DNA of 64,000 nt, taken from Lytechinus pictus (lineage: Eukaryota). Location of the stretch: NCBI RefSeq assembly GCF_037042905.1, contig NC_087245.1:8496001-8560000 (forward strand), written 5' to 3'. Of the stretch, positions 2 through 14,854 are shown one piece after another (position 1 is the stretch's first letter; each line of letters opens with the position of its first letter). The position numbers and the translations under genes were made by a program. The notes under the pieces are model-generated. The model did no database searches. It worked only from the letters and a program-made list of their open reading frames with translations, and was not told the origin of the DNA.

Positions 2-877
2 AGCAGATCAACGGATACCTTGATAACTGGCCTGGCATGTGCAGACTTCTTAACTTCGGTGTTCCTCGTACCTATCCCGATGCCAGCATACATTCCGAAA
101 AACTGGATAGGTGAGATCTATTGCAGAGTTATCATCACACAAAGCTTACTTTGGGCATCCATTATGGCTTCGACATACCTGTTGATGTCTATATCTGTTG
201 AAAGATATATCGCAGTTGTCTACCCTCTTCATTTTAAACGCTTGATCACTCGACGTCGTGTCTCAATTTTCATCGTCATCATTTGGTTCCTCTCTATCTT
301 GTCTGGACTATTCGCTTTCATCGTTTACGGTGTAGACGCCGAAACGAACCAGTGTGCCGAGCAATATACATTCGACAACGCACAAACTATAATTGCCTAC
401 TACTGGTTCTGCCTTCGTCTAGCTCTTCCTTGTTTTACCATGCTCGTTACCCAGGTCCTCATCGCTCGTAACCTCAGTCAACAATTCCGCATCTTCAAAG
501 ACGTTAACAACGCTACAAAAATGACGAATGGAAGCCAAGCGCCATCATTTCACATCGTGGCAAGAAACCGCGTTTTGAAGCTGATGTTGATTGTTATTGT
601 AATCTACATCGTGTGCTGGACACCAAACCAGATTGCATTTCTTGGTTACAACCTTGGATGGGTTCCGGAATCTTATTTGAACAGTACCCTTCATCGATTT
701 CTCACCTTGCTTGGATTCTATAACTCTTGTGCTAATCCAGTCATTTACACAGCAAGGTATCCTGAATTCAGGAATGCTCTCAAAGACATTTTCACCTGCA
801 CTTCTGACAAAAACGATCCTTTGTTTGAAAAGATGTCGAAAAGCACTGCGAATACAAATTCTGACTTGGAAGTTTGA
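2..877 (+). CDS. Class A (rhodopsin-like) GPCR, peptide-receptor-like (galanin/allatostatin-receptor-like group); 5'-truncated by the window edge, no intron in the visible part
   Basis: Frame open from base 2 to TGA at 875-877; TM2 LACAD, TM3 SVERY, TM6 CWTP, TM7 NSCANPVIY and helix-8 EFR motifs. Confidence 0.9.
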   Translation, partial: SRSTDTLITGLACADFLTSVFLVPIPMPAYIPKNWIGEIYCRVIITQSLLWASIMASTYLLMSISVERYIAVVYPLHFKRLITRRRVSIFIVIIWFLSILSGLFAFIVYGVDAETNQCAEQYTFDNAQTIIAYYWFCLRLALPCFTMLVTQVLIARNLSQQFRIFKDVNNATKMTNGSQAPSFHIVARNRVLKLMLIVIVIYIVCWTPNQIAFLGYNLGWVPESYLNSTLHRFLTLLGFYNSCANPVIYTARYPEFRNALKDIFTCTSDKNDPLFEKMSKSTANTNSDLEV

Positions 878-5830: not shown

Positions 5831-7439
5831 CAGTGGCGTAACAGGCGGGGGGCAGGGGGGGCAAGCTGCCCCCCCTGGCGGATTTTACCGGGAAAATTAA
5901 AAAAAAACGGGAAAAAGAAAAAAAGGAGGGAGAAAGAAAGGGAAAGGGGAGGAAAGGGAAAAGGGAAAGGAGGAAAAGGAAAGGGAAAAGTGAAAAGAAA
6001 AAGATTTTTTTACTGGAAAAGGAAAAAAAGCGGAAAAGGGAACGAAAGAAGAACATTTGAGAAAGAAAAATAATTCTAAAATAGGCCTATGTAATGCAAT
6101 AGCATGATGGGAAATAAATTAAAAGATGACAAAATGGCAAACAATAGCGGGAAACGAAGGTAGAATGGAATAAGTCAAAAGCTGAATTAGAAAACAAAGA
6201 AAAGCGACAAGAAAAAAAATAATAACACGACCGGGCTGCCGAGGATTGAAAATAAAGAGCGGGAAGAAAAATGGAGTGCATACAACATTGTGCTATAAGA
6301 TTGCTAAATTTTATGCAAATAAGCTAACGGGGATTTGCCCCGGACCCCACGAAGTAGGGGCTCTTCATCTATAACCATCAAATGGCTCTATAACGCCCCC
6401 GTTTAATCACGTTCAATCACTAGCGTACAGGCAGGGGGGGGGGGTCTTGGTTCCACACCTAAGAGGAAATAGAAGAAATTATATGCTCTCTCAAATATAT
6501 TTGGTTCATTACGTAACTGGGTTGAATAAATGTGTTGTGTAAAAGCTATATATTCTGTAGGCCTATATACCCGCGATTTGATTGAAATAGCGGCAATCTG
6601 CGAGGTTTAAATGGCTTTGATATCAAGAAGTTCTGGGGGCTCCGCCCCGGACCCCAAACACACAGCACTGCCGTATATGAGAATGGAAGGGCTGGGCCAT
6701 GGGCCCCCAAAAGTTCTACAAACAAGAACAAAAAAGGAGGAAAGAAAAGCAAAGGAAAAGTGTAGGATATCATTTTATTTAGTGAATATAATTTCAAAAA
6801 TATCTCAAAATTAGATTCTCATGAAAAGGTGATTTTTTTCTAGCTCGCTTCGCAAGCTCGGGGCTTATATTAAGCAGCTTTTTAGCACATGTGTCATACT
6901 GCGCCCCTCGTTTTTTTTTACTCTTCACTCTACTGCCACAAAGAATCCTGCTCACAGTGGCGTACAGACCACAAAAAAAGGAATGGAAAGAGAAAAGAGT
7001 GAAATTAATTATTTTCTGGATATCATGTCAAAATCTATCACAAATTTGGATTTTGTATAAAAAAGGTCAAAATTTTTGCTCGCTCGCTTCGCTCGCTCGC
7101 AACTTTTTTTATTCAAGATAAATTCTGCCCGATACGCAATATCTGGCCCTCTCAAAATAGTCGCCTCATTACACCATTACGCCTATTCATACCTAGCCTC
7201 TTGTCGAGGCCCTGGCGGCTGCTTCCCGAGCGAAGCGAGGGATTCCCTAATTCGCAAAGCGAATTAGGCCTGGCGCGATCCTGTCTCGCGGCGCTCTGCT
7301 TCGCTCTCTCCCTTGCTTTGCCATGTTCGCTCGGAAAGCAGCCGACAGGGCCTCGACAAGAGGCTAGTTCATACCATGATATGACCGGGAAATTTTTGGC
7401 TCTTGCCCCCCCTGGCCACCGACCCCTGTTACGCCGCTG
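5831..7439. mobile_element. Non-autonomous hAT-type element
   Basis: TIRs CAGTGGCGTAACAGG...CCTGTTACGCCGCTG with perfect 8-bp TSD GTTCAATG (5823-5830, 7440-7447). Confidence 0.85.
7193..7367. mobile_element. 175-bp fold-back MITE nested in the hAT-type element
   Basis: ~42-bp TIRs CTAGCCTCTTGTCGAGGCCCTG...CAGGGCCTCGACAAGAGGCTAG; 7-bp TSD TTCATAC. Confidence 0.8.
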
Positions 7440-7687
7440 GTTCAATGGTGTGCTTGCTTTGAAATCTGCCTATATCAATGAAAGAAATGAAAGGTCATTT
7501 GACCAAAATTGTCCATGAAGTAACTACGAACTGGTCTATTATTGACTGTCTTGTGAATATTTTGTTACTGTTAAAGTCTTTGGCAACGTTAAAGGGAGTC
7601 AATGTTCCTTTGTGAAATGCATGAACTTTTTATACCCCGGTTTACAAGATACCCGAGGGGGGGTGTATATATATATCTATATATATA

Positions 7688-8103
7688 TATTGTAAAGAAA
7701 TGGATGAAGAGAACAAAGGTAGGCGTAGCTTAAATCAAGGTTCCCCAGAGCTATCTACCCTTTGGTAAAATTGGTGATGCCGAAAAAATGTCTCTGCCGG
7801 GAATCGAACCCGGGCCCCCAGCTTTGAACGCCGGTGCCTTAACCACTAGACCACAGAGACGGGTTAGTGGCTAGGGCGACCCCGATCCGATTGACCGTCA
7901 GATAGACAGATTTTCGACACCACACCAAGTATAATTTCCTTTGTCGGGTGAAGGTGGGTTTTGAACAATGACAAGCCGCCATGCTCTGGGGAACCTTGAT
8001 TTAAGCTACGCCTACCTTTGTTCTCTTCATCCATTTCTTTACAATATTTAAATAAAAAAGAGTTGCCAAAAGCTGTTGTACATGTATAACTTTACACATT
8101 TGT
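7688..8103 (-). mobile_element. tRNA(UCA)-containing retroposed repeat, single copy with an inverted segment, bounded by (TA)n
   Basis: 7688-7983 is the reverse complement of the 419-bp unit seen at 10855-11787; 7984-8103 is part of the same unit in forward orientation. Confidence 0.8.
7789..7860 (-). tRNA. 72-nt tRNA-like gene, anticodon UCA (opal-suppressor-like), body similar to tRNA-Glu
   Basis: Reverse complement identical to the copies at 11196 and 11615; followed by T6 on its own strand. Confidence 0.75.
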
Positions 8104-8126
8104 ATATATATATATATATATATATA

Positions 8127-8169
8127 TAGTTGCTGATGAACCCTCAGGGGGAAACAGTCTGTACAACTA
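8127..8169 (+). ncRNA. Minimal type I hammerhead ribozyme (Penelope-like-element type)
   Basis: Stem I TAGTTG/CAACTA, core CTGATGA (8133-8139), stem II CCC-TCA-GGG, GAAA (8151-8154), stem III CAG-T-CTG, cleavage triplet GTA ending at 8163. Confidence 0.75.
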
Positions 8170-8277
8170 AAATCTAAGCAACTCGCTCCACCCTATTACT
8201 ATACTACATGAAGCTCCTATATGTACATGTAGTTGAGCACTTTTCAGTAACTGCAGTTTCGTATAGTCATTATATAA

Positions 8278-8345
<68 letters not shown>

Positions 8346-9181
8346 TTGGGGCCAGAAGTTTACATACACCTGGTGAAAAAAATATTTATATCATTTTTTC
8401 ATAATTTTTTGTCACTCAAACAATTTTATTGCTAATTAGATCAGAAGAATTGTCCAAATACTTTATGCCCATTGTGTATATTTCATATAAAATACTCAGA
8501 TAAATATAACATGGTTTGTAATATCTATATTTCTGAAAAATCAATCGGTCAAAAGTTTACATACAGTTCACTGTTGTAGTTGTAAAATGCTTTTAAAAAG
8601 AGGTGCCATGGCTTTCAGGTGGACTTGGTTTCCTTTTAATGACTTGAGGAACGTGATAATGCTATAATGTCATTTGAATAATGACTGCAGCATTATGCAT
8701 ACCTTTTCCTGGGACCTTTGAAGCATGATTCACATTCCATCCTTGCCATGCAAAGCTAGAATTTGACCCGATGAATAGGTTTTTGTCTTTTGAATAGACT
8801 AAGGGTAAAGAATGTTGACCAGAAGTTCCTGCAGTGATTCAGTTTTGGTATCTATAAATGCTTCCACCAATACCGTACGTGTTGATCAGTACTGCAACAT
8901 TAGCACCAAGGGGAAGTCAAAGCAATATACCGAAGACCTTAGGCAACGTGTTGTTGATTTACACAAGTCCGGTTCCTCTTTAGAAGTCATATCAAAGACT
9001 CTAATCATACCTCGTGCTTCTGTGCAAACCATAATACGCAAGCATAACACTTTCGGGACAGTGCAGACTCTACCAAGATCAGGGAGAAATCGAAAACTGA
9101 ACCTAGACAGCAGTACGCAGACTTGTCCGTACAGTTTAGCTTAACCCACGGATGACAAAAAAGAGATTTGCCAGGATCTGG

Positions 9182-10851
9182 AGGCTTCAGGAAGCAAGGT
9201 ATCCCCCTCTACCATCAAGTGGGTCCTCCATGATCATGGACTGAGAGGCTGCAGAGCGAGAAAGAAGCCTCTACTCCAGGACCGACACCGTAAAGCCAGA
9301 ATGAAGTATGCTAATGAAAACTTCTGGCAAAACGTACTTTGGTCAGATGAAACCAAGATTGAGCTCTTTTGGGCATAACGACCAACGGTATGTGTGGCGT
9401 AAACAAGGAGAAGCTTTCAATCCCAACAATACAGTGCCGACTGTAAAACATGGCGGTGGCAGCAGTGTTGTGGGGATGCTTTGCAGCAAGTGGTACTGGT
9501 TCACTCCAGAAGATTGACGGCACCATGAAGAAAGAGGACTACCTGAAAATTCTTCAGCTAAATCTGAAAACGTCCGCTAAGAACCTCAATCTTAGTAAGA
9601 ATTTGGTCTTCCAACATGACAATGACCCGAAGCAGTCATCAAAAGTTGTATCGGAGTGGCTGAAGAAGACCAAAGTGAGCCGGTGATGGAGTGGCCGTCA
9701 CAGAGTCCAGACCTGAACCCTATTGAGAACCTATGGACAAAGGCTTCAGGAAGCAAGGTATCCCCCTCTACCATCAAGTGGGTCCTCCATGATCATGGAC
9801 TGAGAGGCTGCAGAGCGAGGAAGAAGCCTCTACTCCAGGACCGACACCGTAAAGCCAGAATGAAGTATGCTAATGAAAACTTCTGGCAAAACGTACTTTG
9901 GTCAGATGAAACCAAGATTGAGCTCTTTTGGGCATAACGACCAACGGTATGTGTGGCGTAAACAAGGAGAAGCTTTCAATCCCAACAATACAGTGCCGAC
10001 TGTAAAACATGGCGGTGGCAGCAGTGTTGTGGGGATGCTTTGCAGCAAGTGGTACTGGTTCACTCCAGAAGATTGACGGCACCATGAAGAAAGAGGACTA
10101 CCTGAAAATTCTTCAGCTAAATCTGAAAACGTCCGCTAAGAACCTCAATCTTAGTAAGAATTTGGTCTTCCAACATGACAATGACCCGAAGCAGTCATCA
10201 AAAGTTGTATCGGAGTGGCTGAAGAAGACCAAAGTGAGCCGGTGATGGAGTGGCCGTCACAGAGTCCAGACCTGAACCCTATTGAGAACCTATGGACAAA
10301 GGCTTCAGGAAGCAAGGTATCCCCCTCTACCATCAAGTGGGTCCTCCATGATCATGGACTGAGAGGCTGCAGAGCGAGGAAGAAGCCTCTACTCCAGGAC
10401 CGACACCGTAAAGCCAGAATGAAGTATGCTAATGAAAACTTCTGGCAAAACGTACTTTGGTCAGATGAAACCAAGATTGAGCTCTTTTGGGCATAACGAC
10501 CAACGGTATGTGTGGCGTAAACAAGGAGAAGCTTTCAATCCCAACAATACAGTGCCGACTGTAAAACATGGCGGTGGCAGCAGTGTTGTGGGGATGCTTT
10601 GCAGCAAGTGGTACTGGTTCACTCCAGAAGATTGACGGCACCATGAAGAAAGAGGACTACCTGAAAATTCTTCAGCTAAATCTGAAAACGTCCGCTAAGA
10701 ACCTCAATCTTAGTAAGAATTTGGTCTTCCAACATGACAATGACCCGAAGCAGTCATCAAAAGTTGTATCGGAGTGGCTGAAGAAGACCAAAGTGAGCCG
10801 GTGATGGAGTGGCCGTCACAGAGTCCAGACCTGAACCCTATTGAGAACCTA
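9182..10851 (+). repeat. Three near-identical tandem copies of a 559-bp segment of the Tc1 transposase
   Basis: Units start AGGCTTCAGGAAGC at 9182, 9741 and 10300; the ORF track repeats with period 559. Confidence 0.95.
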
Positions 10852-11195
10852 AGTAGACATTTTTTCGGCATCACCAATTTTTCCAAAGGGTAGATAGCTC
10901 TGGGGAACTTTGATTTAAGCTACGCCTACCTTTGTTCTCTTCATCCATTTCTTTACAATATTTAAATAAAAAAGAGTTGCCAAAAGCTGTTGTACATGTA
11001 TAACTTTACACATTTGTATTTCTTCTCCCATACGTGTACTGTATCGAAGCAATAGCTTTGATCCAGCTGAGGCATGGCGGCTTGTCATTGTTCAAAACCC
11101 ATCTTCACCCGACAAAGGAAATTATAATTGGCATGGTGTCGAAAATCTGCCTATCTGACGGTCAATCGGATCGGGGTCGCCCTAGCCACTAACCC

Positions 11196-11267
11196 GTCTC
11201 TGTGGTCTAGTGGTTAAGGCACCGGCGTTCAAAGCTGGGGGCCCGGGTTCGATTCCCGGCAGAGACA
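11196..11267 (+). tRNA. 72-nt tRNA-like gene, anticodon UCA (11229-11231)
   Basis: Acceptor GTCTCTG/CAGAGAC+A, D arm GTCT/AGGC, anticodon arm CCGGC-GTTCAAA-GCTGG, T arm CCGGG-TTCGATT-CCCGG; A and B boxes intact; TTTTTT at 11268-11273. Confidence 0.75.
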
Positions 11268-11614
11268 TTTTTTCGGCATCACCAATTTTTCCAAAGGGTA
11301 GATAGCTCTGGGAGTCTGGGGAACTTTGATTTAAGCTACGCCTACCTTTGTTTCGATCTTCATCCATTTCTTTACAATATTTAAATAAAAAAGAGTTGCC
11401 AAAAGCTGTTGTACATGTATAACTTTACACATTTTTATTTCTTCTCCCATACGTGTACTGTATCGAAGCAATAGCTTTGATCCAGCTGAGGCATGGCGGC
11501 TTGTCATTGTTCAAAACCCACCTTCACCCGACAAAGGAAATTATAATTGGCATGGTGTCGAAAATCTGCCTATCTGACGGTCAATCGGATCGGGGTCGCC
11601 CTAGCCACTAACCC

Positions 11615-11686
11615 GTCTCTGTGGTCTAGTGGTTAAGGCACCGGCGTTCAAAGCTGGGGGCCCGGGTTCGATTCCCGGCAGAGACA
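11615..11686 (+). tRNA. 72-nt tRNA-like gene, anticodon UCA, second tandem copy
   Basis: Identical to 11196-11267, 419 bp downstream; followed by T6. Confidence 0.75.
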
Positions 11687-11781
11687 TTTTTTCGGCATCA
11701 CCAATTTTTCCAAAGGGTAGATAGCTCTGGGGAACTTTGATTTAAGCTACGCCTACCTTTGTTCTCTTCATCCATTTCTTT

Positions 11782-11836
<55 letters not shown>

Positions 11837-11989
11837 AGAACCTATGGACAAAACTAAAAAAGTGTAAAGGAAACCAAGGATTGTGACTCAATAAAAATTG
11901 TATGCCATCTGCCAAGAGGAGTGGTAAAAAATCACAGGGGAGGTCTGCAAGAAGCTAGTATCCAGTATCAAGTATATATATATATATGT

Positions 11990-12088
11990 GTGTGTAAAGT
12001 TATACATGTACAACAGCATTGGCAACTCATTTTATTTAAATATTGTAAAGAAATGGATGAAGAGAATGTTCTCTTCATCCATTTCTTT

Positions 12089-12095
<7 letters not shown>
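11990..12095. repeat. Inverted remnant of the tRNA(UCA) element's terminal region between (TA)n tracts
   Basis: Reverse-complement segment TGTGTAAAG...GATGAAGAGAA joined to forward TTCTCTTCATCCATTTCTTTACAATA. Confidence 0.75.
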
Positions 12096-12137
<42 letters not shown>

Positions 12138-12199
12138 ATATATATATATAGGGGACCCCCACCCCCGTCCCCTACTGTGCCCGTTTCCTATACACCTAC

Positions 12200-12387
12200 C
12201 TGAAAAGTTCACCATCCCTGTCGATAAAATAATGACCTTTGACATGGTCTCGTTTGGCCTCAATTCGGCCACTAAACATCCCTCCCAGCATCGAATCTGT
12301 AAATGATGTCAATGTTAACACGGTGGTCGTGTACTCCACCCCTCCAACGCTGAGTGTAACGTAGTCTCCGGGTTCGAAATTAGTCAT
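12200..12387 (-). CDS. KCTD-family BTB/POZ protein (KCTD6/11/21-like architecture, ~254 aa), coding exon 1
   Basis: MTNFEPGDYVTLSVGGVEYTTT...SMLGGMFSG...YFIDRDGELFR, a typical KCTD BTB N-terminal half; donor AG|gtag at 12200/12199. Confidence 0.9.
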
Positions 12388-14854
12388 TTCTCCAGGTTCA
12401 TAAATGCATGTAGACCTATACTTTAACCTGATCGCTTTAGTTTAAAGCCCGGCCCGGGCTGAAAAGGCGCTCTATATTATGTTTATTACAAGGTTTTTTG
12501 TTTCTCAATGCGCTGATCAGGAAAAATTCCATCACCATGTGAATAGTACACCTATATCCTACCACGAGGTGTATATAAATATAATCAAGGATAGACTTTG
12601 GACCCAACATGTAGTACTAAACGCTTCAAACCCCATTATATCGAGAGTATAGGCGTCCCGGGTATATAGGCGTATATAGTTTTCAAATAACGTGCATCTT
12701 TCGTTTTTGTAGTTCGTTCATTATTAGTTTCGGTCAGCGGCGTAACTACGGGGGGGGGGGGGGCATTGGGGGGCACGTCCCCCCCCCCCCTCCCCATCGG
12801 CTGGCAAAAAACGGAGAAAATTGAGAAAAATAGGGAGAAAGGAAGATATAAAGCGTAGTGGGAAAGAAGAAATCGCTGTGCATTATAATGTTATATTATT
12901 ATGTTATGTTATATTACATAAGAAATATTTCTTTCATAACTTTATGAAAATAATTTGCTCAGAACCTATGTGTTCATCATTTCTGGTGCTCGCATTGTCT
13001 GTTTAACGAGATCCGGTTGTACTAAAACATCCTGTTTTCAAGTCAATATACACCAAATATATTTCCTCGCACTTCGAGTTATATACTATATGCCTCTTTT
13101 TCATGACTACTTAAAGTGATTGTCCCATTTTAAGGTCTGCATTTCCTGTCCGTGCTTACTCTCGAATTAGTGGGTTGGTGAGATATGTCTGCTCTTCATG
13201 AATTCCTAAAATCAGGCCTTATATTACAAGTTCACCCCAACAAAAAGTTGATTTGAATAAAACGAGAAAAATCCAACAAGCATAATATTAATACATAAAG
13301 CTATGTATACTCTGTAAATATTATATTCGACAGTTAAAACTGTCTGTATCGCCATTTTATTTAGAAAATATGGGTGGAATCAGAAGGCTTGAGACAAATT
13401 TGTAACCATTATAAAGGTAATGAAGTCATTTTGATAACAAAACATAGGCCTATGTGTTTTCGAGGATTTCCTTTCTATATATATCGAAAGGTATGTTCAG
13501 ATTAAAACATATTGCAGAAAAGGATATAGTGAATTGCAGATGCACATTTCAAAAGCAAAGGTCTCAATTTATGGAATATTATACAGATAAAACATCTATT
13601 TGAAAAAATTCCACCCGTTTGGAAAAGGCAAATGCATTTCAAAGAATAAAATAAAAGGGAAATAGATGTGGAAGAAATGTTTTTCATTGTTTCGGACAAA
13701 ATGTTCCATGTAAGTGAACTCGTCTCAAAAAGATTATATAGAACTATTCTCAATTCCAAGTCACGCCTATAGTTAACAATAAGTCACGCCTGTAGTTAAC
13801 TGGTTAAAAATTTTGTTTAGTTTTTCTGTTAGAGATATTGAAAACATTTTTCTGAGGCCAAGAAAATGTACTTCGAATAGTAAGCTGAGGGAATTTCAAT
13901 TCAAATTGTTACACGGGATTATTTACATGAATCGGGATTTATTTCGTTTTGGCATGGTTTTCACGGATCTATACTAATTTTGTAAAAAAAAAGAGAAACA
14001 TACCGTCACTTATTTTACGATTGTGTACATAGTCGTGGAGGGCATGTAATGACGCTCTTAACTTACCCTGTTTTAAGGAACTGGACAGGAAAGGAATACT
14101 TTTGGTTCACCTTTGGGTGATATAGGGAAGACGTATTTATTAAATCACGTAATTCTGTTTGTTAAATATATATTCATTTCAATCCCAAAGAAAAATATAC
14201 CTCCTTATATAGTCAAGAAGTCCAAGAAGTCAAATAAATTTTAGTAAGAAATCAAATTGAGGAAAAAATGATAGCACTGGATCTTTACATCTCAAAAAGT
14301 AGGAAGATTTTGATTCCGAATGAAGGGCAGATTTTTTAAATTTCTTTTCTCTTCTTCTCTCTCCCCTCCATAAGTTGTATATGCTTAGGGAAGAGGGGAA
14401 TATAGGTTTCTGTTGTGTCATTTGTTTTTTGCAGATTCTATATTTTTTTCCTTCTTCTTCTGCAAGTTCCTTATGCACTTTGCGGGGGCTTGCCTGGGTC
14501 ATGAGGCCGGTATATAGGGAGGGGGGCGTACTGATGGGGTCGGGGAATGGGGAGGGCGGGGCGGGATGGGAGGGGACCTGGGCCCGTATTCCATAAACGA
14601 GATAATAAGCATGATTAAGTCAACAATCTAAGCATTTTGTCTTAATTATTTTCTGTCTACGACAAATTTCTTAGCCAAAACGCGTATTCCATATAGAATC
14701 GGCTAAGAATTTTGTTTTAGAATTTGGCTAAGAGTTTTTGCGCGACTAAGACAGATATAGGATGAATGGCTAAGCAACGTACTTTTCTTAAAACTGCATA
14801 GTCTGTATTCCATATGTATCTCGTATCTTACTAAAACTTGGCAATTCGATCATT

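What the first reader, a model, noticed from the sequence alone, without database searches (positions are those of the whole stretch)
11196..11686. Intact-looking 72-nt tRNA with a UCA (UGA stop-reading) anticodon carried by a mobile repeat
Seen: three identical copies (7789-7860 minus, 11196-11267, 11615-11686) fold into a complete cloverleaf with a 7-bp acceptor, 4-bp D, 5-bp anticodon and 5-bp T stem, intact A/B boxes, and T6 directly after the discriminator base. The only register that pairs the anticodon stem gives loop G-U-UCA-A-A. Known: tRNA-Sec also has UCA but is ~90 nt with a long variable arm, so this is not tRNA-Sec. The D and T arms resemble eukaryotic tRNA-Glu. Ordinary SINE heads lose the acceptor stem and are not followed by a terminator. 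Inference: a repeat-borne opal-suppressor-like tRNA, or a tRNA mimic kept for Pol III transcription or processing. G32 is atypical and argues for caution about decoding.
Basis: partly seen in the sequence, partly recalled or inferred. Interest (0 to 1): 0.85.

Follow-up and report, generated by a model that had tools for sequence, protein, structure and literature searches.

The report
Repeat-borne tRNA gene with UCA anticodon
The stop-codon-reading tRNA gene is real, but it is a built-in part of a young, very abundant mobile repeat of an echinoderm genome, and its copies decay like junk DNA, so it is probably not a working stop-codon suppressor.

Summary
Observation confirmed. Three identical 72-nt tRNAs with anticodon TCA, each followed by T6, lie at the stated coordinates (ARAGORN; Rfam tRNA 60.9 bits). 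That score equals this genome's own tRNA-Glu genes (62.2 and 59.5 bits).

They belong to a 406-419-bp repeat. Its 41-nt tRNA core occurs 1593 times exactly and 2338 times at <=3 mismatches in the 812-Mb genome.

Both tRNAs in the finding's span come from one insertion. It consists of 2.3 tandem units, 5'-truncated, with a (TA)24 tail and a 13-bp target-site duplication. Paralogous empty sites in the same window prove the duplication. This is a retroelement with Penelope-like insertion habits, not a DNA transposon.

The tRNA is a mosaic: tRNA-Asn acceptor stem, tRNA-Glu D and T arms, and an anticodon arm of its own.

In 35 flank-anchored copies the tRNA decays like the flank. 20 of 27 changed pairs are broken, and TCA is kept by descent in 34 of 35. 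An old inverted half-copy that has decayed suggests the tRNA was kept intact in the master lineage.

No RNA evidence for a mature tRNA was obtainable.

The scan found this family before, on other windows of the same genome.

The parts
11196..11267 (+). tRNA-like gene, anticodon TCA (first full unit of the array)
   Evidence: ARAGORN; Rfam RF00005 60.9 bits
11615..11686 (+). identical tRNA-like gene (second full unit of the same insertion)
7789..7860 (-). identical tRNA-like gene in a separate, head-to-head insertion
11268..11273 (+). T6 run directly after discriminator A73 (Pol III terminator-like). The same run follows the other copies at 11687-11692 and 7783-7788(-)
   Evidence: sequence
10852..11833 (+). 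one insertion: AGT filler, 5'-truncated unit starting 5 nt before the tRNA 3' end (10855-10904), two full units (10897-11315, 11315-11731), tail piece (11724-11795) and (TA)24 (11786-11833)
   Evidence: blastn map of the unit on 7400-12400; the repeat finder
10839..10851 (+). left target-site duplication TATTGAGAACCTA inside a Tc1-like transposase remnant
   Evidence: Paralogous uninterrupted sites at 9721-9733 and 10280-10292 read straight through
11832..11844 (+). right target-site duplication (its first two letters merge with the TA tail)
11126..11186 (-). old inverted, diverged copy of tRNA positions 39-72 + T run + about 14 nt downstream. It is part of every unit and its B box is destroyed
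   Evidence: local alignment against 1000 and 2000 dinucleotide shuffles, (3 of 2000 shuffles reach the score with the family consensus)
7680..7984 (-). 5'-truncated unit (unit positions 176-416 plus 1-72) carrying the third tRNA, ending in a TA run
7983..8128 (+). inverted 123-nt 3' tail of the unit joined head-to-head to the former, followed by (TA)13 (8103-8128). These are the apparent 'terminal inverted repeats'
   Evidence: the repeat finder I4
11991..12130 (.). third small insertion: two short unit tails head-to-head (11991-12066 minus, 12067-12102 plus), flanked by TA runs, without a tRNA

Best explanation
The UCA tRNA is the tRNA-gene module of a young, abundant, non-coding retroelement. 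The unit is 406-419 bp, and the tRNA occupies unit positions 300-371 followed by its own T6.

How the element spreads. It spreads by target-primed reverse transcription of RNAs longer than one unit. Priming occurs in TA-rich sequence, so copies arise as 5'-truncated pieces, head-to-tail runs and head-to-head pairs that end in (TA)n. This is the insertion style described for Penelope-like elements. That it is a retroelement is shown (about 0.85). The Penelope-like partner is inferred (about 0.5).

What the tRNA is. It is a mosaic: Asn-type acceptor stem, Glu-type D and T arms with perfect A and B boxes, and an anticodon arm of its own. Its UCA is inherited by all copies from the founder.

What happens to copies. 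Inserted copies are not maintained: they decay like their flanks. So the hundreds of intact genes are not a host opal suppressor (about 0.9).

Why the tRNA is intact. In the master lineage the tRNA seems to have been kept intact while an inverted half-copy beside it decayed. I therefore take it to serve the element in cis. It could act as a TFIIIC/Pol III-bound unit, or as a tRNA fold recognised by RNase P/Z or by the reverse transcriptase. In that reading the anticodon is irrelevant. This last step is inference (about 0.5).
For: Family size:
- The 41-nt tRNA core has 1593 exact matches and 2338 at <=3 mismatches; the control gave 0.
- A downstream 41-mer has 2873 matches and an upstream 41-mer 2197. 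This is a 3'-to-5' gradient, as expected from 5' truncation.
- There are arrays at 406-bp spacing, for example about 43 exact cores at C2:8866141-8883639.

Retro-insertion in this window:
- A 13-bp TSD is proven by two paralogous empty sites.
- The insert has an AGT filler, a 5' truncation inside the tRNA 3' end, and a (TA)24 tail.
- Head-to-head forms with arms of unequal length exist.

Link to Penelope-like elements:
- The literature describes a (TA)n insertion bias, complex tandem/inverted insertions and a lack of hammerheads in Naiad PLEs (PMC8557442, passages).
- PLEs are present in this genome: 59 GIY-YIG matches with open frames up to 1026 aa.
- 3 of 30 PLE loci hold unit pieces. In L068 a truncated unit abuts a truncated PLE at a TA-rich joint, and that PLE family also ends in (TA)n.

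tRNA quality: 60.9 bits, against 62.2 and 59.5 for the genome's Glu genes. The head of the Glu-derived SINE scores nothing.

Mosaic: identical to Glu-TTC at positions 6-21 and 45-67. The acceptor GTCTCTG/CAG(A/G)GAC is that of the genome's tRNA with an Asn (GTT) loop.

Neutral decay (35 of 40 upstream-anchored copies):
- 12 of 35 tRNAs are perfect.
- Substitution rates are 37/2487 in the tRNA and 52/2414 downstream (p = 0.087).
- Stems are at 1.9% and loops at 1.0%.
- 20 of 27 changed pairs are broken.
- In the tRNA, CpG sites change 2.8 times as often as other sites.

Master-lineage constraint: the inverted half-copy matches at 44 of 54 ungapped columns plus 7 gapped columns; 3 of 2000 shuffles reach its score. 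The tRNA arm is still letter-identical to the Glu gene over the B box.
Against: - No autonomous partner was identified. The unit shares no sequence with the 3' ends of the 30 PLE loci examined, apart from inserted unit copies. A LINE partner is therefore not excluded.
- The T6 and a T5 further on mean that Pol III starting at the tRNA cannot transcribe the whole unit. The tRNA is thus not the element's promoter in the SINE sense, and its cis role is undefined.
- Element 3' ends lie in the TA-rich tail, not at the tRNA borders. This does not fit simple RNase P/Z unit-cutting.
- The master-lineage argument is weak. About 3 changes would be expected in the 23 nt identical to Glu, so P(0) is about 0.04 by my estimate. 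Gene conversion, or an already diverged donor arm, could also explain it.
- The tRNA is not significantly better kept than the downstream flank in copies.
- RNA-seq shows only flat coverage of the whole unit in both directions. That library type cannot show a 72-nt tRNA in any case.
Confidence: 0.55

Rival explanations
1. Pure passenger. A mutated tRNA gene with about 300 bp of flank happened to lie at a TA microsatellite. It was copied into a tandem/inverted retro-insertion and then amplified. The tRNA does nothing for the element and looks perfect only because the burst is recent.
For: Copies decay neutrally. The tRNA and the downstream flank do not differ significantly. The tRNA has its own terminator, so it cannot drive unit-length transcription. 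Short tails without a tRNA also insert (11991-12102; L116, L121, L124).
Against: The family consensus keeps a flawless cloverleaf and A/B boxes, while the inverted half-copy inside the same unit has lost its B box. Both non-Glu stems are fully paired. Tail-only copies are expected dead ends of truncation and say little.
Confidence: 0.28
2. Working opal suppressor or low-level UGA decoder. Some copies are transcribed by Pol III, processed, charged and read UGA. Charging could be by TrpRS, given G1-C72, A73, C35 and A36; these identity rules are recalled, not tested here.
For: All Pol III signals are intact and the score equals genuine tRNAs. U33 and A37 are present. TCA is kept in 34 of 35 copies. 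By extrapolation, roughly a third of about 2200 copies carry a perfect 72-nt tRNA (12 of 35; 2197).
Against: There is no purifying selection on copies; broken stems are as frequent as expected by chance. The excess of CpG transitions suggests germline methylation, which is unlike active tRNA genes. G32 is rare at that position (recalled). The mosaic carries no complete identity set for AsnRS or GluRS, both of which read the anticodon (recalled). Hundreds of active suppressor genes would be hard to tolerate in an animal that uses UGA as a stop; the GPCR exon at 20-877 ends in TGA. In-frame TGA codons in PLE copies are CGA-to-TGA decay, not recoding.
Confidence: 0.05
3. DNA transposon of the MITE or foldback type, whose terminal inverted repeats flank a captured tRNA gene.
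For: The copy at 7680-8105 shows 72-nt inverted ends that are 97% complementary (repeat finder I4). Many loci show inverted arms.
Against: The inverted arms differ in length from locus to locus and are 5'-truncated copies of the same 3' tail. The tandem insertion at 10852-11833 has no inverted ends, a 13-bp TSD, a filler and a microsatellite tail. There is a 3'-to-5' copy-number gradient.
Confidence: 0.04
4. The tRNA-like RNA is used by the host or the element as a small RNA, for example a tRNA-fragment or piRNA source, or a mascRNA-like processed product, rather than in decoding.
For: The fold is tRNA-like, with a weak mascRNA-menRNA match of 20.8 bits, below the 42.5 gathering score. Family sequences are present in RNA-seq.
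Against: The mascRNA match is what any tRNA gives. RNA-seq coverage is flat and runs on into unrelated flanks in 42-67% of laid reads, as for passive co-transcription. No small-RNA library could be laid.
Confidence: 0.08

Closest known systems
Non-autonomous derivatives and insertion style of Penelope-like elements (Naiad/Neptune type; Craig et al. 2021, PMC8557442, passages read)
   Same: Bias for (TA)n. Complex tandem plus inverted, 5'-truncated insertions. TSDs often hidden in microsatellites. No hammerhead in Naiads. PLEs with a CxxC linker and GIY-YIG domain are present in this genome, and one family ends in (TA)n.
   Different: No sequence shared with any PLE 3' end examined (30 loci). 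It carries a complete tRNA gene, which is not mentioned in the passages I read.
Animal non-LTR retrozymes (Cervera & de la Pena 2020, PMC7229834, passages; 2026 bioRxiv preprint 10.64898/2026.07.22.740005, one passage)
   Same: Non-coding tandem units of about 170-400 nt. TSDs longer than 4 bp. Co-existence with PLEs. Strongly self-paired unit RNA (unit fold z = -5.8).
   Different: No hammerhead or other ribozyme family at gathering score or at E <= 5. Circular RNA was not testable here. A tRNA stands where the ribozyme would be.
tRNA-derived SINEs, such as this genome's own Glu-derived SINE (L031, L036, L041, L042)
   Same: tRNA-related A/B boxes. Retroposed with TSD and truncation. Thousands of copies that tRNA finders may report, sometimes as 'suppressors'.
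   Different: In SINEs the tRNA part is the 5' head, has lost its cloverleaf (no Rfam hit) and runs on into the body. Here the tRNA is internal, scores like a real gene, and is closed by its own T6.
tRNA-Sec and natural or engineered opal suppressor tRNAs
   Same: Anticodon UCA.
   Different: 72 nt, 7/5 acceptor/T stems, 4-nt variable region and A73. G73 is described as essential for tRNA-Sec (PMC5330540, passage). No evidence of charging or decoding.

Membership tests
tRNA (Rfam RF00005) | Cloverleaf and sequence profile at or above the gathering score of 29 bits | tested here: met
   60.9 bits over model positions 1-71 for all three copies. The genome's Glu-TTC scores 62.2 and Glu-CTC 59.5.
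Pol III type-2 (tRNA) gene | A box, B box and a T-run terminator after the 3' end | tested here: met
   Positions 6-21 and 45-67 are letter-identical to the genome's Glu-TTC gene. T6 follows A73. Actual transcription was not tested.
tRNA-Sec | About 90 nt, long variable arm, extended acceptor stem, G73 | tested here: not met
   72 nt, 4-nt variable region, 7-bp acceptor, A73. The G73 requirement is from PMC5330540. ARAGORN's 'SeC' label reflects only the anticodon.
Functional nonsense-suppressor tRNA | Aminoacylation and read-through of UGA | not testable with these tools
   No tRNA-seq or small-RNA run could be laid. The poly(A)/cDNA reads cannot show it.
Functional nonsense-suppressor tRNA | Purifying selection on gene copies (stems and anticodon kept better than flanks) | tested here: not met
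   Substitution rates 1.5% against 2.2%, p = 0.087. 20 of 27 changed pairs broken, none doubly compensated.
tRNA-derived SINE | tRNA-related region at the 5' end acting as internal promoter for the whole element | tested here: not met
   The tRNA lies at unit positions 300-371 and is followed by T6 and a T5.
tRNA-derived SINE | Retroposition marks: TSD, 5' truncation, simple-repeat tail | tested here: met
   13-bp TSD with empty paralogous sites, truncated start, (TA)24 tail.
Non-LTR retrozyme | Hammerhead ribozyme in each unit | tested here: not met
   No ribozyme family at gathering score in the window, nor at E <= 5 in 10850-11800.
Non-LTR retrozyme | Tandem non-coding units of a few hundred nt expressed as circular RNA | tested here: inconclusive
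   Tandem 406-419-bp units: yes. Unit-junction reads occur in RNA-seq but are equally expected from genomic arrays. Circles were not testable.
PLE-mobilised non-autonomous element | Microsatellite target bias with tandem and inverted 5'-truncated insertions | tested here: met
   The description of PLE behaviour is in PMC8557442.
PLE-mobilised non-autonomous element | 3' end shared with an autonomous PLE of the same genome | tested here: not met
   blastn of the unit against 30 of 59 GIY-YIG loci found only inserted unit copies in L064, L068 and L070. Other PLE families were not examined.
MITE / foldback DNA transposon | Terminal inverted repeats of fixed extent, a short fixed TSD and no 5' truncation | tested here: not met
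   Arms are of variable length. The array has a 13-bp TSD and no inverted ends.

The most novel reading that the evidence does not exclude
The tRNA is the working part of a ribozyme-free 'retrozyme'. In multimeric transcripts of the repeat, the host's own tRNA-processing enzymes (RNase P, RNase Z) or tRNA-binding factors act on the embedded cloverleaf, as the hammerhead does in retrozymes. This would give the RNA defined ends, stability or access to a Penelope-like reverse transcriptase. The master lineage has therefore kept a perfect tRNA, with an irrelevant UCA anticodon, while an inverted half-copy decayed. The modest pile-up of 5' ends of insertions within about 9 nt of the tRNA 3' end would be its footprint. 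That pile-up is the window copy plus L115, L116, L121 and L124, out of about 11 truncated copies.
Probability: 0.15. Interest if true: 0.8.

Novelty: new variant of a known kind. Interest (0 to 1): 0.45.

Why it matters
- For annotation. By extrapolation from 12 of 35 sampled copies, several hundred perfect 'suppressor' or 'SeC' tRNA calls in this genome are repeat modules. They should not be read as a code change or as extra tRNA-Sec genes.
- For mobile-element biology. A complete tRNA gene with its own terminator sits in the middle of a tandem, TA-seeking, apparently Penelope-style non-autonomous retroelement. This is neither the SINE layout nor a hammerhead retrozyme. If the tRNA proves necessary, it would show a second way, through host tRNA enzymes, to run such elements.
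- For tRNA evolution. The Asn/Glu mosaic with fully paired new stems is an unusual natural chimera.

Tried and rejected
- Whole-genome DNA search with the 72-nt tRNA found nothing, because very common words are skipped. I used pattern searches instead.
- I first guessed a bivalve Helentron or MITE satellite. Papers from searches gave nothing relevant. PMC5874043 only uses tRNAscan as a method (passages).
- The look-up of sequencing runs: no RNA holder listed.
- Read laying on two raw cDNA runs and two contig runs. Coverage of the unit is flat, the two directions are equal, 42-67% of reads run into unlike flanks, and there is no start or end pile-up at the tRNA. This says nothing about a mature tRNA. 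My first impression from the read variants, that the tRNA is far better conserved than its flanks, did not hold up on genomic copies.
- Origin from the canonical tRNA-Glu tandem array (L113, 11 genes): the flanks are not homologous.
- ORFs next to copies: 17 of 44 ORFs of >=110 aa were scanned. Only one sub-threshold zf-RVT hit appeared.
- Idea that the UCA tRNA serves in-frame UGA codons of PLEs: the TGA codons in L043, L060 and L063 stand where other copies have Arg, which is CGA decay.
- Literature searches (sea urchin / suppressor / tRNA-derived / Penelope) returned no description of this family. Repbase could not be searched, and supplements were not opened.
Their isotype is therefore my reading of the loop CTGTTAA, not a tRNA-finder call.

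Full report
**Observation.** ARAGORN finds three tRNAs in the window, at 7789-7860(-), 11196-11267(+) and 11615-11686(+). All have anticodon tca.
- Rfam's tRNA model matches each end to end at 60.9 bits (gathering score 29).
- The copies are identical, and each is followed at once by TTTTTT.
- Energy folding alone is weak: z = -2.0, and the MFE lacks the D stem.
- The score equals that of this genome's genuine tRNA-Glu genes (62.2 and 59.5 bits). The head of a Glu-derived SINE of the same genome scores nothing.
- It is not tRNA-Sec. It has 72 nt, a four-base variable region and A73. G73 is reported as essential for tRNA-Sec (PMC5330540, passage).

**The organism.** The window lies in an 812-Mb, 368-contig eukaryote assembly.
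- A GPCR exon at 20-877 (Pfam 7tm_1) has its two nearest Atlas clusters dominated by Echinodermata.
- Earlier notes of this scan call the genome a sea urchin. I did not verify that beyond the phylum-level hint.

**Family size.** A 41-nt core of the tRNA, including the anticodon, occurs 1593 times exactly. It occurs 2338 times with up to three mismatches, against 0 for the reversed control.
- A 41-mer just downstream occurs 2873 times and one just upstream 2197 times, both at <=3 mismatches.
- Copy number therefore falls from 3' to 5' along the unit.
- Copies are dispersed on all large contigs. They also form arrays at 406-bp spacing, for example about 43 exact cores at C2:8866141-8883639.

**Anatomy in the window.** The two tRNAs of the finding belong to one insertion, 10852-11833. 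It consists of:
- three filler bases (AGT);
- a unit truncated 5 nt before the tRNA's 3' end;
- two full units of 419 and 417 bp;
- a 72-nt tail piece;
- (TA)24.

The insertion sits in a Tc1-like transposase remnant and is flanked by TATTGAGAACCTA on both sides (10839-10851 and 11832-11844). Two paralogous copies of the same remnant in the window (9721-9733, 10280-10292) read straight through ...CCTATTGAGAACCTATGGACAAA. The duplication and the insert borders are therefore proven.

The third tRNA (7789-7860) lies in a different kind of insertion. A 5'-truncated unit (7984 down to 7680, minus strand) is joined head-to-head to an inverted 123-nt copy of the unit's 3' tail (7983-8105). Both arms end in TA runs. 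A third, tRNA-less pair of short tails lies at 11991-12102.

The 'terminal inverted repeats' are thus the outward-pointing 3' tails of two truncated copies. Their lengths differ from locus to locus.

**Kind of element.** Four features are marks of target-primed reverse transcription, not of a cut-and-paste transposon:
- the TSD;
- the filler;
- variable 5' truncation with constant 3' ends in TA- or CA-rich sequence;
- multi-unit inserts.

The combination of a (TA)n bias with tandem and inverted truncated copies is what Craig et al. describe for Penelope-like elements, especially Naiads, which also lack hammerheads (PMC8557442, passages). Evidence on a PLE link in this genome:
- The genome holds PLEs: 59 GIY-YIG matches (150 of 468 candidates scored), with open frames up to 1026 aa and frequent head-to-head pairs. 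They have a CxxC linker and a C-terminal endonuclease.
- Of the 30 loci fetched, three contain unit pieces.
- In L068 a truncated unit abuts a truncated PLE across a TA-rich joint, and that PLE family itself ends in (TA)n.
- The unit shares no sequence with these PLE 3' ends, so the partner is not identified. A LINE remains possible.
- No ribozyme family matches the unit.
- The unit RNA is strongly self-paired (z = -5.8).

**The tRNA itself.** Aligned with the genome's own genes, it is identical to tRNA-Glu(TTC) at positions 6-21 and 45-67 (A box, D loop, variable region, whole T arm). Elsewhere it is different.
- Its acceptor stem, GTCTCTG paired with CAGAGAC (CAGGGAC in a common variant), is that of a genomic tRNA whose loop reads CTGTTAA, i.e. 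Asn(GTT). Of the 14 matches to that pattern, 3 are this tRNA and 11 are family variants. The isotype is my reading; the loci could not be cut.
- The anticodon arm (CCGGC / GTTCAAA / GCTGG) resembles neither parent.
- Relative to Glu, an extra A stands after GGTTA and one T fewer stands in the loop's T run. TTCA is therefore read as U33-UCA rather than as UUC-A. The UCA is not a simple point mutation of a Glu anticodon.
- Flanks of the canonical Glu genes, including an 11-gene tandem array (L113), are unrelated to the unit.

**Are the copies maintained?** I took 40 of the 100 listed places that match the upstream 41-mer exactly, skipping neighbours within arrays. This anchors the sample outside the tRNA.
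- Five rows were dropped because they had less than 85% identity over -115..+147 (L081, L087, L098, L110, L111).
- In the remaining 35, 12 tRNAs are perfect and 34 keep TCA. One carries a deletion.
- Substitutions run at 37/2487 (1.5%) in the tRNA and 52/2414 (2.2%) in +79..+147 (Fisher p = 0.087).
- The rate is 130/2548 (5.1%) in -115..-42. That stretch contains three subfamily polymorphisms and alternative junctions.
- Stems (1.9%) are hit more than loops (1.0%).
- Of 27 changed pairs, 20 are broken, 7 became wobble pairs, and none is doubly compensated.
- Within the tRNA, CpG sites change 2.8 times as often as others, as in methylated DNA.

The inserted copies therefore decay neutrally. The uniform anticodon reflects youth and common descent.

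**Was the tRNA maintained in the master lineage?** The 61 bases at -9..-70 of every unit are an inverted, diverged copy of tRNA positions 39-72 plus the T run and about 14 nt beyond.
- There are 44 matches in 54 ungapped columns, plus 7 gapped columns.
- The score is 26, against 14.8 +/- 2.2 in shuffles. 3 of 2000 shuffles reach it. With the window copy, 6 of 1000 reach it.
- In that arm the B box is destroyed. The tRNA arm is still identical to the Glu gene over the same stretch.
- If both arms had drifted alike, about three changes would be expected there. By my estimate P(0) is about 0.04.

This is suggestive, not strong, evidence that founders needed an intact tRNA. The fully paired non-Glu stems point the same way.

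**RNA.** No run on record as RNA holds the unit (tried, no conclusion). Two raw cDNA runs were laid (1034 and 796 reads of 12.9 million records read from each).
- Coverage is flat over the whole unit, and the two mate directions are equal.
- 42-67% of laid reads run on into unrelated sequence.
- There is no pile-up of ends at the tRNA.

This looks like passive co-transcription within longer RNAs. Such libraries cannot detect a 72-nt tRNA.

**Mechanism.**
- Shown: a retroposed, tandem-forming repeat carries a Pol III-competent mosaic tRNA gene, and its copies are unconstrained.
- Inferred: a Penelope-like partner (about 0.5).
- Inferred: the tRNA has a cis role for the element (about 0.5). It cannot be a SINE-type promoter, because T6 and a later T5 would stop Pol III. 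The role would rather be TFIIIC/Pol III occupancy, or a tRNA fold used in RNA processing or template choice.
- A small excess of insertion 5' ends near the tRNA's 3' end fits either RNase Z-type cutting or stalling of the reverse transcriptase at the fold. The excess is the window copy plus L115, L116, L121 and L124, out of about 11 truncated copies chosen by hand. The steeper count drop between the downstream and core patterns points the same way.
- A working suppressor is unlikely (about 0.05) for the reasons given under the rival explanations.

**Comparison and novelty.** The kind is known: tRNA-related retroposed repeats that tRNA finders report. This layout differs from SINEs and from hammerhead retrozymes. 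It has an internal, complete tRNA gene with its own terminator, an Asn/Glu mosaic, 406-bp tandem units and TA-seeking insertions.
- My searches found no description of it. Repbase and paper supplements were not searched.
- The scan itself has met the same family on other windows of this genome. Those notes gave me the Penelope lead, which I tested here on independent loci.

Noticed in passing
window 9182-10599: Three 559-bp tandem copies, 100% identical over the 300 nt compared, built from a fragment of a Tc1-like transposase gene (...SPDLNPIEN...). The repeat insertion hit the third copy, so the other two serve as empty sites.
   Followed up: partly
window 20-877 (+): Open frame of 285 aa with a rhodopsin-type GPCR domain (7tm_1, E 6e-37), ending in TGA. 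Its nearest Atlas clusters are echinoderm-dominated.
   Followed up: partly
L031, L032, L036, L041, L042 (genome loci): A separate, decayed tRNA-Glu-derived SINE family. Its head is GGGCGTCGTGGTCTAGTGGTTATGAC..., its loop still reads TTTCAA, and its body begins ...CAGCAAGAAATTTA. It makes up most of the 171 pattern hits and has no Rfam tRNA hit.
   Followed up: no
L113 (C16:2591500-2599500): Eleven canonical tRNA-Glu(TTC) genes in 8 kb, most at a spacing of about 380 bp. This is a tandem tRNA gene array unrelated in its flanks to the UCA repeat.
   Followed up: partly
L068, L117, L118: The same chimeric joint occurs at three loci: an unrelated sequence ending GGCCCACTGTG, fused to the tRNA from position about 28 (CGGCGTTCAAAG...). 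A truncated, chimeric copy has therefore itself been propagated.
   Followed up: no
L068, L070 (C16), and pairs: A Penelope-like family with a CxxC linker, a C-terminal GIY-YIG domain, a pyrimidine-rich 3' UTR of about 540 nt and a (TA)n end. Several PLE copies lie in head-to-head pairs (for example C8:37400803/37401754 and C2:28666679/28667453).
   Followed up: partly
window 10897-11312: One unit, folded as RNA, gives a long rod-like structure (-139 kcal/mol, z = -5.8). In it the tRNA's 5' half pairs with the upstream inverted arm, and the T6 trailer pairs with GGAAATTATAATTGG...CGAAAA upstream. This fold competes with the cloverleaf in long transcripts.
   Followed up: partly
table 3: In one cDNA run a particular subfamily dominates the reads (for example 11020-11022 TTC>ACT in about 90% of reads). 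This suggests that a few loci inside expressed genes supply most of the RNA signal.
   Followed up: no
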